A DNA stretch of 62,414 nucleotides from Candidatus Giovannonibacteria bacterium (lineage in GTDB: Bacteria; Patescibacteriota; Minisyncoccia; JACPKW01; UBA11713): assembly GCA_016176285.1 (NCBI GenBank), contig JACOXM010000003.1, forward strand, positions 1 through 62,414, read 5' to 3'. The translations under genes were made by a program, and so were the position numbers. Under the pieces are notes generated by a model. The model worked only from the letters and a program-made list of their open reading frames with translations, had not been told where the DNA came from and did no database searches. Positions within the stretch are counted from its first letter, which is position 1, and every line of letters starts with the position of its first letter. Shown piece after piece: positions 30,492 through 33,514 of this stretch.

Positions 30492-31550
30492 ATGAAAAAT
30501 ATTATTAAAATTTTCTTGATATTGATTATTTTAGCGGCGCTTTTTTTTGCTGCAAAGCCGTATTTTTTAAAAAAGGATGCGGCGAATAACACAAATAATA
30601 ACAATCAAAGAGAAACCGGCGTTAGGCTCGAGTGGAAGGAGCTTACAAATTCCGCTGCGTGGAAGCCAAGAGATTCTCACGCGACTTTTGTTTTTCGGGA
30701 TAAGATATGGGTGGTTGGCGGGCTAAACGGGAATGGGCTTGTAAATGAGAATCACCAGATAAGGTATGACCGAGCGCCGCATTATAACGATGTATGGAAT
30801 TCCGAAGACGGAGTCAATTGGACAAAAGTATCGGAAGAAATTTGGCCGCCCCGAAGATCAATGTCCGTAGTATTTTTTAAAAATAAACTTTTTTCTTATG
30901 GCGGATGGAGCCCGATATCGGGATACTATAACAGGATTTGGTCATCCGATGACGGCATTAAATGGTCAATGCTGGACTCGAAGGTGCCCTGGGAATCTCG
31001 GGAGGGCCAAATTGTTGAAGAATATAATGGGAAGCTTTGGCTGATGGGCGGAGTCAATTACGATAAAAGAAAAGTTTTTAACGACGTTTGGGTTTCCGAT
31101 GACGGGGTAAGCTGGGGCCAAGCAACTGCGCAGGCAGGCTGGTCGGGAAGATGGGATCACGCGGTCGCGGTTTTTAAAGGAAAAATATATCTAACCGCGG
31201 GAATGGATTTATCTTCCCATACTTTTAAGGATGTCTGGTCTTCGGAGGATGGTATAAATTGGAATATGGTTACGGACAATGCTCCTTGGCCGGAACGGCA
31301 GGGGCATAGCCTTGTAGATTTTAAGGGGAAATTAATTTTGCTTGGGCGGCTTAATGACGAGGGCGGAGTTAATGACGCTTGGTATTCTGATGATGGGATG
31401 AATTGGACATCTTTCGGAAATCTTCCCTGGGATGGGAGAGAAGACTCCGGAGCAATAGTTTTTAAAGATAAAATATTTATCGCGGGCGGAATGGCGAGGG
31501 ACTGGACGTGGCGAAATGATGTCTGGTCGGCGGATTTGAACTCGGATTAG
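30492..31550 (+). CDS. Kelch-repeat (beta-propeller) protein with an N-terminal membrane anchor
   Basis: 352-aa ORF with repeated W.S.DG..W / GG units about every 50 aa. It starts 1 nt after tRNA-Val. Confidence 0.65.
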   Translation: MKNIIKIFLILIILAALFFAAKPYFLKKDAANNTNNNNQRETGVRLEWKELTNSAAWKPRDSHATFVFRDKIWVVGGLNGNGLVNENHQIRYDRAPHYNDVWNSEDGVNWTKVSEEIWPPRRSMSVVFFKNKLFSYGGWSPISGYYNRIWSSDDGIKWSMLDSKVPWESREGQIVEEYNGKLWLMGGVNYDKRKVFNDVWVSDDGVSWGQATAQAGWSGRWDHAVAVFKGKIYLTAGMDLSSHTFKDVWSSEDGINWNMVTDNAPWPERQGHSLVDFKGKLILLGRLNDEGGVNDAWYSDDGMNWTSFGNLPWDGREDSGAIVFKDKIFIAGGMARDWTWRNDVWSADLNSD

Positions 31551-31921
31551 AATTCAAGCTTACGGCCCTTGTAGTTCAGGGCTTCTGCAAGAAATTTTTT
31601 CCCGTCTTTTGTGCTGTGCTCAATTGTATGACAATTAGCACATAATAAAATACATTTTTGCATTTCTGCTTTAATTGAACCCCAGCTTTTATTTGCAACA
31701 TTCCCGATAGTAAAATCCTTTTCAGTAGGAACTTTGTGGTGAAATTGCAAGGCTGCTTGATTCCCAAACCATCCGCATTTAATACATTTCCCCCCTAAAA
31801 ATTTAATAGCTGCTGCTTTTGCTCTAAACCGTCGTATTTTTGTATTACAAGATCCGCATCTTTTTCTGTTCTTTTTTTGATAATCCTTAAATTGATTTTG
31901 ACAAAGTCTGCATGTCTGCAT
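31547..31921 (-). CDS. HNH endonuclease / zinc-ribbon protein
   Basis: 124-aa ORF with several CxxC pairs, HH in LQFHHKVP and CANCHTIEH. Confidence 0.7.
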   Translation of the reverse strand: MQTCRLCQNQFKDYQKKNRKRCGSCNTKIRRFRAKAAAIKFLGGKCIKCGWFGNQAALQFHHKVPTEKDFTIGNVANKSWGSIKAEMQKCILLCANCHTIEHSTKDGKKFLAEALNYKGRKLEF

Positions 31922-32010
31922 AATTTAAGTATATCATTCTGGGTTCTACCAAAATGTGTACAATTGCAAAAAAATTTATTTTTAGTACCCTGAATAGATA
32001 ATTAAGAAAT

Positions 32011-32292
32011 GCCGCGGTAGCTCAGTGGTAGAGCGCTACCCTGAAAAAATTCGGGGCCTTCTGCAGTAATGCAGATTGAATAACTGGGTGAAATCGGGGG
32101 AACTCTTTTTAAAGACAATCCCGAGCCAAGGTCGCCTAAGGCGACAAGGTGTAGAGACTATCTCGCAAGAGAGTACTCCTCAATTTTATTGAGGCGGAAG
32201 CGCCCAGGATCCAAAAATATTTTGGATCATGATATAGTCCAAGTTACCTTTGGAAGAGGTAGGCGTCGGGTGTTCGATTCACCCCCGCGGCA
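32011..32292 (+). tRNA. tRNA-Phe (anticodon GAA) interrupted by a group I intron after U33
   Basis: Exon 1 (32011-32042): GCCGCGG-TA-GCTC-AGTGGTA-GAGC-G-CTACC-CT. Exon 2 (32253-32292): GAAGA-GGTAG-GCGTC-GGGTG-TTCGATT-CACCC-CCGCGGC-A. The joined loop is CUGAAGA. Confidence 0.85.
32043..32252 (+). ncRNA. Group I intron (IC3-like, ORF-less, 210 nt)
   Basis: Exon 1 ends in U and the intron ends in G. P1 is CCCU / GGGG around a GAAAAAAUUC loop. Blocks CCGAGCCAAG and AAGGUGUAGAGACUA match my recollection of the Azoarcus tRNA-Ile intron core. GNRA-capped hairpins CTGCA-GTAA-TGCAG and TCTC-GCAA-GAGA are present. Confidence 0.85.
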
Positions 32293-32311
32293 CATTTCTA
32301 GGAGCTACAAC

Positions 32312-32785
32312 TTATTCCATTTTTACCTTGAGTCTCTGGGTTTTTGATTTGTCGAGTTTTGGTAGGCGGATTGTTATAAGGCCGTTTTTGATCGTTGCCT
32401 GCGCGGCATCGGAATCAACTTCCTGGGGTAGGAGAATGGATCTCGAAAACGAACCCCAGTAAAGCTCTTTATAAAAAAAGTCTTTTTCTGAAACTTCATG
32501 CACCCGTTGGCGCTTCCCTTTAATGGTGACCATGTCTTGGGTTATAGAAACGTCCAAATCGTCCGGCTTTACTCCGGCAACTGTGGATTGAATGATTATT
32601 TCATCCTCATTTTGAAAAACGTCGACTGTTAATTCGCCTTCTTCGTTTGTCTCGATCCAGCTGGATGATTGCGGCAGTTTGGTGCTTTTAGCAAGTGCCG
32701 GGGTTGGCTCGAGATCTTCATTTTCTTTATCTACCCGGACTGATCCGGTAAGTTTTTCAAAAAAAGAACGGCTGTCTTTTGGCAT
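32312..32785 (-). CDS. Hsp20/alpha-crystallin family small heat-shock protein
   Basis: 157-aa ORF with an alpha-crystallin domain pattern (VDVFQNEDEIIIQSTVAGVKPDDLDVSI ... F.RSI.LP ... A...NG.L.I.LPK). Confidence 0.8.
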   Translation of the reverse strand: MPKDSRSFFEKLTGSVRVDKENEDLEPTPALAKSTKLPQSSSWIETNEEGELTVDVFQNEDEIIIQSTVAGVKPDDLDVSITQDMVTIKGKRQRVHEVSEKDFFYKELYWGSFSRSILLPQEVDSDAAQATIKNGLITIRLPKLDKSKTQRLKVKME

Positions 32786-32791
32786 AATTTT

Positions 32792-33514
32792 TTATGGATT
32801 TAATCTTTTTACTCTTTCGAAAAAGAAAATTAATACTAAAGCGAGAGTCCAGACGGCAAACATGGTCCTGAATATGCTCGCTGAACTTTCTGCATTAATT
32901 ATAAATATATTGAACGCCGTATGCAATACCGTAGCCAGTATAATCCCACCGATTATGTTTCTTCTGTGGTGTTCGGGATGGAAAAAGGTGAAAGCAATGG
33001 AAACCCCGACTATTCCTGCGGTAACGGTGTGGAGGAGCGTCGCGCCCATAAAGCGGTAGTCGGCAGTCGCAAGTATGTCAAAAAGTTTCCCGTTTTGACC
33101 CATAATTTTAAGCAAAAACAGGAAATTTTCCATCGCGGCGAACCCGAGAGCTACCGTGATGAGGTAAATTATGGCGTCCACGGGCTCGTCGTAAACCGAA
33201 CGCCTTAGGTCAGCCCACCAGGCCGCGCCGAATTTTGCAATTTCTTCCGCGAATGCCCACGGGATGAGAAGCCACCATGAATATTCATTCTGCAAATCCA
33301 CAAGGCCAAGGCTCATTGCTAAATATTTCCAAAGAGATTGTACCAGAATTACAAACGGCACTGCGGCTACGCCAAGAATGAAACTTTTAAAAAGGGCATT
33401 TTTGGGCTCGGGGTGCGGATCTTCCTTTAGCCAAAACCACAACCATAAAAGCGGAGGAATGAAGCCGGTCAAGAAAACCAACGAAACTCCTTCCGCTGTC
33501 AAGGTTGGGGCCAT
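32792..33514 (-). CDS. PrsW family intramembrane metalloprotease
   Basis: 240-aa polytopic ORF with AFAEEIAKF and HTAFN motifs. Confidence 0.7.
   Translation of the reverse strand: MAPTLTAEGVSLVFLTGFIPPLLWLWFWLKEDPHPEPKNALFKSFILGVAAVPFVILVQSLWKYLAMSLGLVDLQNEYSWWLLIPWAFAEEIAKFGAAWWADLRRSVYDEPVDAIIYLITVALGFAAMENFLFLLKIMGQNGKLFDILATADYRFMGATLLHTVTAGIVGVSIAFTFFHPEHHRRNIIGGIILATVLHTAFNIFIINAESSASIFRTMFAVWTLALVLIFFFERVKRLNP

What the first reader, a model, noticed from the sequence alone, without database searches (positions are those of the whole stretch)
32011..32292. Group I intron in tRNA-Phe(GAA), inserted after U33, which is an unusual host tRNA and position
Seen: the exons 32011-32042 and 32253-32292 join into a canonical tRNA with the anticodon loop CUGAAGA. 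The 210-nt intervening sequence starts after a U that can wobble-pair with GGGG (P1: CCCU/GGGG) and ends in G. It contains CCGAGCCAAG and AAGGUGUAGAGACUA, which I recall as core blocks (J6/7-P7 and J8/7 region) of the Azoarcus tRNA-Ile group I intron. It also has GNRA-capped helices (GUAA, GCAA) and no ORF. Established knowledge: the bacterial tRNA group I introns I am aware of sit in tRNA-Leu(UAA), tRNA-fMet, tRNA-Arg(CCU) and tRNA-Ile(CAU), each after a U within or next to the anticodon. I am not aware of one in tRNA-Phe. Because GAA has no U, U33 is the only option, which fits the observed junction. This appears to be the only tRNA-Phe in the window, so splicing would be essential if no other copy exists. 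GAA is present on both sides of the junction, so the anticodon call does not depend on the exact splice site.
Basis: partly seen in the sequence, partly recalled or inferred. Interest (0 to 1): 0.6.

Follow-up and report, generated by a model that had tools for sequence, protein, structure and literature searches.

The report
Group I intron splitting tRNA-Phe gene
The only phenylalanine tRNA gene of this very small bacterial genome is interrupted by a compact self-splicing-type intron; this is real but common in such ultra-small bacteria, and a mobile-looking nuclease gene sits right beside it.

Summary
Window 32043-32252 is a 210-nt group I intron (Rfam RF00028, 72.2 bits, E 2.3e-16). It lies between U33 and G34 of a tRNA-Phe(GAA) gene (exons 32011-32042 and 32253-32292). 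This is the only tRNA-Phe gene found in the 638-kb, 99.5%-complete genome.

The same insertion site occurs in 11 of 151 related genomes and in at least 120 public species genomes, nearly all Patescibacteria/CPR. Across 72 distinct homologues, P1, P2, P3, P4, P6a and P8 covary strongly, and P10 covaries with tRNA position 37. Same-family genomes carry intron-less alleles with the same CUGAAGA loop.

The claim of novelty is not supported. The classical tRNA-fMet intron uses the same loop position, and a 2020 preprint (Williams) extends tRNA intron types from 4 to 21. Its table is an image I could not read. Earlier agents of this scan found the same intron type on other genomes.

The more interesting feature is a 124-aa HNH endonuclease gene (31547-31921, minus strand) 89 nt upstream. 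Its close relatives always flank tRNA-Phe genes, and its distant relatives lie inside or beside other tRNA genes. Self-splicing and nuclease activity are inferred, not shown.

The parts
32011..32042 (+). tRNA-Phe 5' exon (positions 1-33; ends in U33, the U-1 of the intron)
   Evidence: All 72 aligned homologues have U at this column, paired with G (pair 34-54: UG 72 of 72).
32043..32252 (+). Group I intron, 210 nt, no ORF; the last base is omega-G (32252)
   Evidence: RF00028 at 72.2 bits, E 2.3e-16. MFE fold -68 kcal/mol, z -3.8, recovers P2-P6 and P8. Covariation in 72 homologues.
32039..32056 (+). P1: exon CCCU plus intron GAA (32039-32045), loop AAAA, internal guide UUCGGGG (32050-32056). 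UUC (32050-32052) can alternatively pair with the 3' exon GAA (P10).
   Evidence: alignment. In one search helix 1 is 100% paired and 3 of 4 pairs show compensatory changes. In one search, P10 has at least 4 contiguous bp in 68 of 72 homologues, but only 3 bp in this window.
32060..32075 (+). P2 hairpin with GUAA tetraloop
   Evidence: In one search helix 2, 6 of 6 pairs show compensatory changes.
32084..32090 (+). P3 5' strand CUGGGUG (pairs with 32201-32207)
   Evidence: helix 3: 99.6% paired; UA 36 / CG 34 / GC 2 at the outer pair.
32094..32124 (+). P4 (UCGGGG / UCCCGA) enclosing the short P5 hairpin
   Evidence: helix 4: 99.5% paired, 4 of 6 pairs with changes on both sides. P5 is misaligned by MAFFT and was not scored.
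32125..32150 (+). P6/P6a hairpin (GCC...GGU with an inner 6-bp stem and UAA loop)
   Evidence: helices 5 and 6: in P6a, 6 of 6 pairs show compensatory changes.
32154..32160 (+). P7 5' strand (G-A-GACUA), pairs with 32235-32240 (UAGUCC); the presumed guanosine-binding helix
   Evidence: Invariant in 72 of 72 sequences (helix 7). This gives conservation but no covariation information.
32161..32194 (+). Two extra hairpins between P7 and P3' (UCUC-GCAA-GAGA; CCUCAAU-UUU-AUUGAGG). This is the 'type A' peripheral insert.
   Evidence: fold. alignment columns 266-282 show UCUC/GAGA, UCCC/GGGA and UCUU/AAGA variants. Type A introns form one clade of 27 sequences (98*), separate from type B with 45.
32201..32207 (+). 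P3 3' strand CGCCCAG
   Evidence: helix 3.
32208..32228 (+). P8 hairpin (9 bp)
   Evidence: In one search helix 8, 4 of 4 scored pairs show compensatory changes and 81.6% of cells are paired (the alignment is loose here).
32229..32252 (+). J8/7 plus P7 3' strand (AUGAUAUAGUCC) and a 12-nt tail ending in omega-G. This copy has no P9 hairpin.
   Evidence: Many homologues carry a P9 hairpin in alignment columns 395-415; the window's copy does not.
32253..32292 (+). tRNA-Phe 3' exon (G34 A35 A36 G37 ... A73)
   Evidence: Intron-less alleles of the same family have the same loop CUGAAGA.
31547..31921 (-). Free-standing HNH endonuclease gene (124 aa), divergent from the tRNA gene and 89 nt from its 5' end
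   Evidence: PF01844 E 2.1e-4, 21.8 bits against a cut-off of 21.4. PHROG 2255 'HNH endonuclease' E 1.8e-25. Relatives always flank tRNA-Phe. Empty sites occur in same-family genomes.

Best explanation
Window 32043-32252 is a functional, ORF-less group I intron in the anticodon loop of the genome's only tRNA-Phe(GAA) gene, between U33 and G34.

Inferred mechanism, by analogy with characterised group I introns:
- The precursor folds so that the last exon bases CCCU pair with the internal guide GGGG, placing U33 in a U.G wobble.
- An external guanosine bound in P7 attacks after U33.
- The guide's UUC then swaps from the intron's own GAA to the 3' exon GAA (P10).
- Omega-G 32252 enters the same site, and the exons are ligated to give a tRNA with anticodon loop CUGAAGA.

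The element is one member of a large, mostly vertically inherited lineage of tRNA-Phe introns in Patescibacteria-type bacteria. It is present in some genomes and absent from others of the same family.

Shown here: family membership, the exact boundaries, structural conservation and covariation, and single-copy status. Inferred: self-splicing itself.
For: - RF00028 scores 72.2 bits against a gathering score of 50, E 2.3e-16, and is the single such hit in the genome.
- The genome is 99.46% complete. It has 43 other tRNA genes covering 19 amino acids and no other tRNA-Phe. There is no second copy of either exon.
- Eleven of 151 genomes of the class carry an intron at the identical site. None of the other 10 matches the pattern for an uninterrupted tRNA-Phe.
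- Of 80 loci from a scan of all species genomes, 74 are complete split tRNA-Phe genes. All 74 have U-1 and omega-G, and their introns are 202-295 nt.
- On 72 distinct sequences, 97.2% of cells pair against 79.5% in shuffles. Twenty-six of 41 pairs have changes on both sides. Zero of 500 shuffles reach any measure, and slid controls give 31-48% paired.
- P10 covaries with tRNA position 37: G-C 49, A-U 19, mismatch 4 of 72. This fixes the 3' splice site.
- Introns that begin AAA instead of GAA (L003, L008, L039) leave no ambiguity about the anticodon.
- Same-family genomes G002, G004, G007 and G009 have intron-less genes with loop CUGAAGA in conserved synteny.
- DNA contigs in three metagenome runs join 32042 directly to 32253. 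These are intron-less alleles of other organisms with exactly these boundaries.
- The in-silico spliced product is called tRNA-Phe and is 69 of 72 identical to natural gene L177.
Against: - No splicing was observed. The one RNA-library run that holds related sequence (X15) gave a 222-nt contig spanning the 5' junction unspliced (32020-32243) and no spliced joint. DNA carry-over cannot be excluded.
- This copy is minimal. Its P10 is only 3 bp (one of 4 of 72 sequences with 3 bp or fewer of contiguous P10). It also lacks the P9 hairpin that many homologues have, so efficient 3' splice-site choice may need the tRNA fold or a protein.
- P7 never varies, so it adds conservation but no covariation.
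- The assembly has 16 contigs, so a second tRNA-Phe in a gap cannot be strictly excluded.
Confidence: 0.9

Rival explanations
1. The intron persists partly because it shields the tRNA-Phe gene from the neighbouring HNH endonuclease, an arrangement like collaborative homing. In this reading the free-standing nuclease cuts uninterrupted 'standard' tRNA-Phe genes of related genomes. The intron, or a diverged allele, makes the carrier immune, and nuclease gene and intron spread by repair. This adds to the best explanation rather than replacing it.
For: - HNH domain: PF01844 and PHROG 2255 at E 1.8e-25.
- Of 80 metagenome loci with 71-82% identical proteins, the 5' exon of a tRNA-Phe gene is seen 83-103 nt from the start codon, divergent, in 74 (the other 6 flanks were too short). 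44 genes are intron-less, 25 have the intron, 4 show the intron's 5' part only and 1 is unresolved.
- The intron is carried by 29 of 74 such genes against 11 of 151 genomes of the class.
- HNH-linked intron-bearing alleles have the standard variable loop G[CU]GU in 13 of 15. HNH-linked intron-less alleles have it in 2 of 30.
- Homologues at 35-50% identity lie inside other tRNA introns.
- Same-family genomes G009 and G007 show an empty site with neither HNH nor intron.
- Collaborative homing is described in passages of PMC3984707.
Against: - 44 of 74 HNH-linked genes have no intron.
- Only 9 of 65 intron-bearing loci with enough upstream flank have the HNH gene, and 3 of 11 in the class.
- HNH presence is scattered on the intron tree: 10 changes for 11 rows, no better than shuffles.
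- The allele difference follows one large clade of the HNH tree, so it may be a lineage effect. Similar 'variant' alleles occur without HNH in 6 of 38 genes.
- That control set was chosen with a pattern that fixes part of the D arm.
- No cleavage site is known.
Confidence: 0.3
2. The intron is removed only with help from a host protein, or from the folded tRNA body. It is not an autonomous self-splicer under physiological conditions.
For: - P10 is 3 bp and there is no P9 in this copy.
- The genome encodes no recognisable intron maturase inside the intron.
- The title of Zaug et al. 1993, seen only in the reference list of PMC3984707, says that the Anabaena pre-tRNA intron needs exon pairing in the anticodon stem.
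Against: - Every column that is invariant across the 72 homologues is kept in this copy.
- All core helices form in the unconstrained MFE fold.
- From recall, small bacterial tRNA introns such as Azoarcus self-splice well.
Confidence: 0.2
3. The split gene is a dead copy, and the working tRNA-Phe lies in an unassembled part of the genome.
For: The assembly is in 16 contigs. tRNA genes are sometimes lost from metagenome bins.
Against: - Completeness is 99.46%, and Phe is the only amino acid without another tRNA gene.
- Ten other intron-bearing genomes also lack an uninterrupted tRNA-Phe by pattern.
- Exons and core are intact and under covariation.
- Synteny with the intron-less genes of relatives is conserved.
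Confidence: 0.04
4. The splice sites lie 4 nt further 3', as ARAGORN places them, giving loop CUGAAAA with A37.
For: ARAGORN reports i(37,210). A37 is usual in bacterial tRNA-Phe (recalled), and it occurs in many relatives.
Against: - That placement has A, not U, before the 5' site and A, not G, as the last intron base.
- The U.G pair is present in 72 of 72 sequences.
- Same-family intron-less genes have G37.
- The DNA joints run 32042 to 32253.
Confidence: 0.02

Closest known systems
Classical bacterial tRNA group I introns: tRNA-Leu(UAA), tRNA-fMet(CAU), tRNA-Ile2(CAU) and tRNA-Arg(CCU). Williams 2020 lists them as Leu.3Ug, fMet.2Ug, Ile2.5Ug and Arg.5Ug, all subgroup IC3.
   Same: A small ORF-less ribozyme in the anticodon loop, with U-1 in a U.G wobble in P1 and an omega-G. 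The insertion is after loop nucleotide 2 (U33), exactly as in the fMet.2Ug class.
   Different: The host is tRNA-Phe(GAA). This copy carries two extra hairpins between P7 and P3' (type A) and no P9. By recall this is not the IC3 layout, and subgroup membership was not established here.
'Phe.2Ug' setting in the nomenclature of K.P. [quoted passage not shown]
   Same: By the preprint's naming rule (loop positions 0-7, then the -1 base, then the omega base), this intron would be written Phe.2Ug. The preprint reports 17 new settings and a high frequency in metagenomic assemblies of unnamed phyla.
   Different: I could not confirm that tRNA-Phe is among the 17. The name comes from earlier notes of this scan.
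[quoted passage not shown]
   Same: A free-standing HNH gene lies within about 120 nt of the insertion site of an ORF-less intron. Both elements are present or absent among close relatives. Homologous nucleases are intron-encoded elsewhere.
   Different: The host is a cellular chromosome and a tRNA gene, not a phage protein gene. Most relatives of the nuclease flank intron-less tRNA-Phe genes (44 of 74). No cleavage data exist.
Phage T4 SegB, a free-standing homing endonuclease in the tRNA gene cluster
   Same: A selfish nuclease gene parked beside tRNA genes, which are its presumed targets.
   Different: SegB is a GIY-YIG enzyme of a phage, whereas here it is an HNH enzyme in bacteria. The comparison rests on recall only.

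Membership tests
Group I intron (Rfam RF00028) | Covariance-model score at or above the curated gathering score | tested here: met
   72.2 bits against 50, E 2.3e-16, full model 1-253.
Group I intron (Rfam RF00028) | 5' splice site after a U held in a U.G wobble inside P1 | tested here: met
   U32042.G32053. UG in 72 of 72 homologues, and the three neighbouring P1 pairs covary.
Group I intron (Rfam RF00028) | Terminal guanosine (omega-G) before the 3' splice site | tested here: met
   G32252. G in all 11 class members and all 74 complete public loci.
Group I intron (Rfam RF00028) | Core helices P3-P8 with the P3/P7 pseudoknot, supported by covariation | tested here: met
   P3, P4, P6a and P8 have compensatory changes, 97.2% of cells are paired, and 0 of 500 shuffles reach this. 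P7 is invariant, so it is conserved but uninformative.
Group I intron (Rfam RF00028) | P10 between the internal guide and the 3' exon | tested here: met
   At least 4 contiguous bp in 68 of 72 sequences. Position 37 covaries with its partner (G-C 49, A-U 19). The window's copy has only 3 bp.
Group I intron (Rfam RF00028) | Guanosine-dependent self-splicing | not testable with these tools
   Needs an in-vitro assay or tRNA sequencing. The RNA run gave no spliced joint.
Subgroup IC3 (classical bacterial tRNA introns) | IC3 peripheral layout (P2, simple P5, P9/P9.0, nothing between P7 and P3'); this definition is recalled | tested here: inconclusive
   P2 and a simple P5 are present. There are two hairpins between P7 and P3' and no P9 in this copy. 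No reference IC3 sequence or subgroup model was available.
Williams 2020 'Phe.2Ug' setting | tRNA-Phe host, loop position 2, U at -1, G at omega | tested here: met
   with the naming rule.
Williams 2020 'Phe.2Ug' setting | Listed among the 21 settings of the preprint | not testable with these tools
   Table 1 and Fig. 3 are held as images, 'Phe' occurs 0 times in the text, and supplements are closed.
HNH homing endonuclease (neighbouring gene 31547-31921) | HNH nuclease motif | tested here: met
   PF01844 at 21.8 bits against 21.4, which is marginal. PHROG 2255 E 1.8e-25 and PHROG 3106 E 4.3e-20. CxxC...HH...N...CxxCH...H can be read in the translation.
HNH homing endonuclease (neighbouring gene 31547-31921) | Presence/absence polymorphism at a fixed site among close relatives | tested here: met
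   The synteny Kelch-[slot]-tRNA-Phe-HSP20 is conserved. G009 and G007 have a 35-nt empty slot, G000 has HNH, G001 has an HNH remnant, and G004 has a GIY-YIG ORF.
HNH homing endonuclease (neighbouring gene 31547-31921) | Site-specific cleavage of alleles that lack the element | not testable with these tools
   Needs a biochemical assay.

The most novel reading that the evidence does not exclude
Patescibacteria may carry a family of small HNH homing endonucleases whose lineages are each tied to one tRNA gene. Members are free-standing beside tRNA-Phe, Arg(UCU), Pro(UGG), Gln(CUG), Asn(GUU) and Thr(UGU), or are encoded inside tRNA introns. In this reading the tRNA-Phe intron in this window is one of two ways, the other being allele divergence, by which a carrier genome escapes cutting by its own tRNA-Phe-linked nuclease. 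That would be a chromosomal, tRNA-based version of collaborative homing, and the slot upstream of tRNA-Phe would be a hot spot that different nuclease families (HNH here, GIY-YIG in G004) invade in turn.
Probability: 0.3. Interest if true: 0.6.

Novelty: new member of a known kind. Interest (0 to 1): 0.3.

Why it matters
For annotation, standard tRNA finders miss this gene. The genome then looks as if it cannot decode Phe codons, and the same applies to at least 120 public species genomes. A remark in PMC8172020 (passages) shows that authors of closed CPR genomes met the same problem.

For biology, an organism with a 0.64-Mb genome depends on a ribozyme to make an essential tRNA. This 210-nt copy, without P9 and with a 3-bp P10, is a naturally minimised group I intron that could be a useful splicing model.

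The linked nuclease genes offer a testable system for how homing endonucleases and introns colonise tRNA genes in uncultured bacteria.

Tried and rejected
- **RNA evidence.** One search for sequencing runs and one lay of reads were made. Only one RNA run held related sequence. It gave two contigs and no spliced joint, so there is no verdict on splicing. The 'skips 210' joints are in DNA runs, so they are intron-less alleles of other organisms and not splicing.
- **Promoter and terminator scan, 31500-32850.** It found one promoter-like site inside the HNH ORF and one terminator-like site far downstream. This is fewer than in shuffles and is uninformative. Several HNH-linked loci share a TTGCAA...TAATAT-like spacer by eye, which I did not test.
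- **HNH protein.** Solved structures gave no credible match (best E 0.13). NCBIfam gave nothing meaningful.
- **ARAGORN calls.** Its splice placement (A37) is rejected on the U-1/omega-G rule. Its label 'tRNA-Thr(tgt)' for the ORF-bearing introns is probably wrong.
- **Immunity test by allele comparison.** The result is suggestive but confounded by lineage and by my pattern-biased control set.
- **P5 and the distal part of P8.** MAFFT misaligned them, so they were left out of the scored structure.
- **Literature.** No held text names a group I intron in a bacterial tRNA-Phe. 'Phe.2Ug' matched 0 papers. PMC5733544 (passages) describes 22-49-nt 'introns' in other tRNAs and is not relevant. The 2026 preprint 10.64898/2026.10.21.760802 (passages) is not relevant either.
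Full report
**What is there.** RF00028 (Intron_gpI) matches window 32033-32262 on the + strand over the whole model at 72.2 bits (gathering score 50), E 2.3e-16. The other 16 Rfam matches in the window are ordinary tRNAs. ARAGORN in default mode lists 16 tRNAs and no tRNA-Phe. With introns allowed it adds tRNA-Phe(gaa) at 32011-32293 with a 210-nt intron. Reading the sequence:
- Exon 1 is 32011-32042 and ends in U33.
- The intron is 32043-32252 and ends in G.
- Exon 2 is 32253-32292 and starts G34-A35-A36-G37-A38.
- P1 pairs CCCU|GAA (32039-32045) with UUCGGGG (32050-32056) around an AAAA loop, with U32042.G32053 as the wobble pair.
- The guide's UUC can instead pair with the GAA of exon 2 (P10). 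This explains why the intron itself starts with GAA.

The unconstrained MFE fold of the intron is -68 kcal/mol, z -3.8 against shuffles. It contains P2 (GUAA loop), P3, P4, P5, P6/P6a, P8 and two further hairpins between P7 and P3'. No frame of 40 aa or more lies inside the intron.

**Is it the only tRNA-Phe?** The window is contig C5 of a 638,120-base genome in 16 contigs, rated 99.46% complete and 0.02% contaminated. ARAGORN finds 43 tRNA genes for 19 amino acids there, with only Phe missing. RF00028 hits nothing else. BLAST of each exon finds no second copy; the other hits are 18-21-nt D-arm similarities to other tRNAs. A copy hidden in an assembly gap cannot be strictly excluded.

**Relatives.**
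- Among 151 genomes of the same class (all 0.5-1.3 Mb), 80 have an RF00028 match at E 0.001 or better, and 54 score over the cut-off.
- ARAGORN with introns on the 30 best loci calls split tRNA genes in 21 and none in 9. The 21 are Phe 6, CAU-type 4, Asn 3, 'Thr' 6, 'His' 1 and 'Leu' 1.
- A pattern for the 3' junction finds 10 of 151 genomes. Adding G037 (L011) gives 11 of 151 with the intron. All 11 have U before the intron, G as its last base and GAAGAG after it.
- A pattern for an uninterrupted tRNA-Phe anticodon arm matches 89 of 151 genomes. One of these is G000 itself, where the intron's first bases mimic the exon.
- None of the other 10 intron-bearing genomes matches that pattern.
- The uninterrupted genes have loop CUGAAGA or CUGAAAA. 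Same-family genomes G002, G004, G007 and G009 have CUGAAGA, so G37 is native to this lineage and ARAGORN's alternative placement (A37) is wrong.

**Wider distribution.** Their record titles are almost all Patescibacteria/CPR lineages. A few are labelled otherwise. My script found complete split tRNA-Phe genes in 74 of the 80. Five of the rest are cut by a locus end and one is unresolved. All 74 have U-1 and omega-G, and their introns are 202-295 nt. The pattern biases this sample towards standard variable and T loops.

**Structure and covariation.** I aligned 72 of 84 references (81 distinct) after thinning near-copies. I then scored a hand-drawn structure of P1, P2, P3, P4, P6, P6a, P7 as a pseudoknot, and four pairs of P8.

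| Measure | Observed | Control |
|---|---|---|
| Cells paired | 97.2% | 79.5% in shuffles |
| Pairs with changes on both sides | 26 of 41 | – |
| Covariation score | 0.507 | 0.154 in shuffles |
| Shuffles reaching any measure | 0 of 500 | – |
| Cells paired in slid controls | – | 31-48% |

- P7 is invariant, so it is conserved but uninformative. P5 and distal P8 were misaligned and left out.
- In ungapped coordinates, P10 has at least 4 contiguous pairs in 68 of 72 sequences.
- tRNA position 37 covaries with its guide partner: G-C 49, A-U 19, mismatch 4. The window is one of the mismatches, with a 3-bp P10.
- The related sequences share ancestry, so the shuffle control overstates significance. 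The slid controls and the compensatory changes do not depend on that.
- The intron tree has two well-supported groups (98*): 'type A' with two hairpins between P7 and P3' (27 sequences, including the window) and 'type B' with one long-range hairpin (45 sequences).
- The window's copy has no P9 hairpin, which many homologues have.

**Expression.** Four groundwater DNA runs of one study hold the stretch, and one RNA run holds 5% of its words. After laying reads:
- The RNA run gave a 222-nt contig over 32020-32243. It is unspliced across the 5' junction and could be precursor or DNA.
- The RNA run gave no spliced joint.
- Three DNA runs have contigs joining 32042 to 32253. These are intron-less tRNA-Phe genes of other community members, which confirms the boundaries but not splicing.

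**Prior knowledge.** Williams 2020 (bioRxiv 10.1101/2020.01.27.920355; held main text read in full) reports the following:
- It maps 5,292 split tRNA genes.
- It names the four classical settings Leu.3Ug, Arg.5Ug, fMet.2Ug and Ile2.5Ug, all IC3, and adds 17 new ones.
- It notes 0.49 split tRNA genes per genome in metagenomic assemblies of unnamed phyla.

By its numbering, this intron sits at position 2, the same as the classical fMet intron. The 17 new settings appear only in Table 1 and Fig. 3, which are held as images. 'Phe' does not occur in the held text, and supplements are closed. The label 'Phe.2Ug', and the statement that it is listed there, come from earlier notes of this scan on other genomes, and I could not verify them.

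PMC8172020 (passages) says that some tRNAs of closed CPR genomes had group I introns that made them hard to detect. tRNAscan-SE 2.0 (PMC8450103, passages) says it was not designed to detect them. No held text names a bacterial tRNA-Phe group I intron.

**The neighbouring nuclease.** The ORF at 31547-31921 on the minus strand (124 aa) starts 89 nt from the tRNA's 5' end and is divergent from it.
- It matches PF01844 HNH marginally (E 2.1e-4, 21.8 against 21.4 bits). It matches PHROG 2255 'HNH endonuclease' clearly (E 1.8e-25).
- It is single-copy in the genome.
- In the class, 32 of 151 genomes have a homologue. G079 has a 72% identical copy in the same position beside its tRNA-Phe intron. G001 (same family) has a remnant covering residues 81-124.
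- About 17 hits at 35-48% identity abut or overlap RF00028 hits.
- These lie inside introns of genes that ARAGORN labels tRNA-Thr(tgt) or tRNA-Asn(gtt), with open frames of 106-132 aa in the 5' part of the intron.
- By the U-1/P1 rule (exon CUGU pairing with GCAG), the 'Thr' calls are more likely tRNA-Asn(GUU) split after U35.
- Eleven hits were not next to a listed RF00028 hit. Eight lie directly beside uninterrupted tRNA genes: Arg(UCU) three times, Pro(UGG) twice, and Gln(CUG), Asn(GUU) and Thr(UGU) once each. One is inside an intron, one is on a 613-nt contig, and one gave no tblastn hit.

**Linkage to tRNA-Phe.** A metagenome scan with the protein kept 80 loci at 71-82% identity.

| State of the adjacent tRNA-Phe gene | Loci |
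|---|---|
| Intron-less | 44 |
| Intron-bearing | 25 |
| 5' exon plus start of the intron only | 4 |
| Unresolved | 1 |
| Upstream flank too short to see a tRNA | 6 |
| Total | 80 |

- In all 74 loci whose upstream flank was long enough to judge, the 5' exon of a tRNA-Phe(GAA) gene is seen 83-103 nt from the start codon, divergent from the HNH gene; for 73 of them the intron state could be assigned.
- Conversely, 9 of 65 intron-bearing public loci with at least 480 nt upstream carry the gene, plus one remnant.
- On a quick HNH tree the intron state needs 7 changes against 27 in shuffles. Most intron-less neighbours fall in one group of 42.
- On the intron tree, HNH presence is scattered: 10 changes for 11 rows.
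- HNH-linked intron-bearing alleles have the common variable loop G[CU]GU in 13 of 15 distinct alleles. HNH-linked intron-less alleles have it in 2 of 30, and 13 of those 30 have an odd T loop starting UGC.
- HNH-free intron-less alleles of the class have the common variable loop in 27 of 38.

This fits 'intron or divergence protects from the nuclease'. It fits lineage structure equally well, and the control set was chosen with a biased pattern.

**Empty sites.** In the window's family the order Kelch-repeat gene, tRNA-Phe, HSP20, PrsW, class I aminoacyl-tRNA synthetase is conserved.

| Genome | Slot between the Kelch gene and tRNA-Phe | Intron in tRNA-Phe |
|---|---|---|
| G009, G007 | 35 nt, no nuclease gene | no |
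| G000 (window) | HNH gene | yes |
| G001 | HNH remnant | yes |
| G004 | 91-aa GIY-YIG ORF (PF01541, E 5.2e-13), ending 1 nt before the tRNA | no |

The slot is therefore a site that different nuclease genes occupy. Both the nuclease and the intron are gains or losses among close relatives.

**Verdict.** The observation and the core interpretation are right, and the claimed rarity is not. The intron is one more member of a widespread and apparently already catalogued class. Self-splicing is a strong inference from family membership and from the gene's essential, single-copy status, but it has not been demonstrated. The linked tRNA-associated HNH family is the part worth following. Earlier agents of this scan had already raised it for tRNA-Phe on other genomes. 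Here I confirmed the strict linkage independently, extended it to other tRNA genes in a small sample, and found the empty-site polymorphism.

Noticed in passing
window 31547-31921 (-): A free-standing 124-aa HNH endonuclease gene lies 89 nt upstream of the split tRNA-Phe gene and is divergent from it. In 80 metagenome loci, all 74 close relatives with enough flank to judge sit in the same position beside a tRNA-Phe gene, with or without the intron.
   Followed up: yes
L303:2241-2516 (G004, same family): A 91-aa GIY-YIG nuclease ORF (PF01541, E 5.2e-13) fills the slot between the Kelch gene and an intron-less tRNA-Phe, the slot that holds the HNH gene in the window. G009 and G007 have an empty 35-nt slot.
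   Followed up: partly
L283-L302, L013, L016, L019, L027, L030, L007: HNH homologues at 30-50% identity lie inside group I introns of tRNA genes, or directly beside uninterrupted tRNA-Arg(UCU), Pro(UGG), Gln(CUG), Asn(GUU) and Thr(UGU) genes. Each sub-lineage seems tied to one tRNA.
   Followed up: partly
L009, L013, L016, L019, L027, L030 and L005, L017, L020; L004, L010, L014, L026, L021: Relatives hold other tRNA introns. One type is CAU-anticodon tRNAs split after U36. Another is genes that ARAGORN calls tRNA-Thr(tgt), which by the U-1/P1 rule (CUGU pairing with GCAG) look like tRNA-Asn(GUU) split after U35. The Thr/Asn assignment is unresolved.
   Followed up: partly
window 32256; G000:C9:12187-12900 and G000:C6:12330-12977: tRNA-Phe of this lineage has G37 (loop CUGAAGA), not the A37 usual in bacteria (recalled). 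Other members of the class have A37. The genome encodes both a MiaA-type (PF01715) and a TrmD-type (PF01746) enzyme. The TrmD match runs through one TAA stop.
   Followed up: no
L174, L179, L180, L185, L188, L200, L203, L208, L212, L220, L223, L232, L239: Thirteen of 30 distinct HNH-linked intron-less tRNA-Phe genes have T loops beginning UGC (G at position 55), where U55 is nearly universal (recalled). Several also have a D stem reading GUAGUAGC.
   Followed up: no
G000:C13:35586-35658 and G000:C1:22112-24624: The genome has a tRNA-Ile(UAU) and only two CAU-anticodon tRNAs. AUA may therefore be read by tRNA-Ile(UAU) rather than by a lysidine-modified CAU tRNA. No tRNA-Ile(GAU) was found in the 16 contigs.
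   Followed up: no
L227, about 90-170 nt upstream of its tRNA-Phe (orientation): A partial copy of the tRNA-Phe 5' end (acceptor plus a degenerate D arm) lies just upstream of the intact HNH-linked gene. It may be a recombination footprint.
   Followed up: no
window 1-62414: The window is dense in tRNA genes: 17 in 62 kb, out of 44 in the genome.
   Followed up: no
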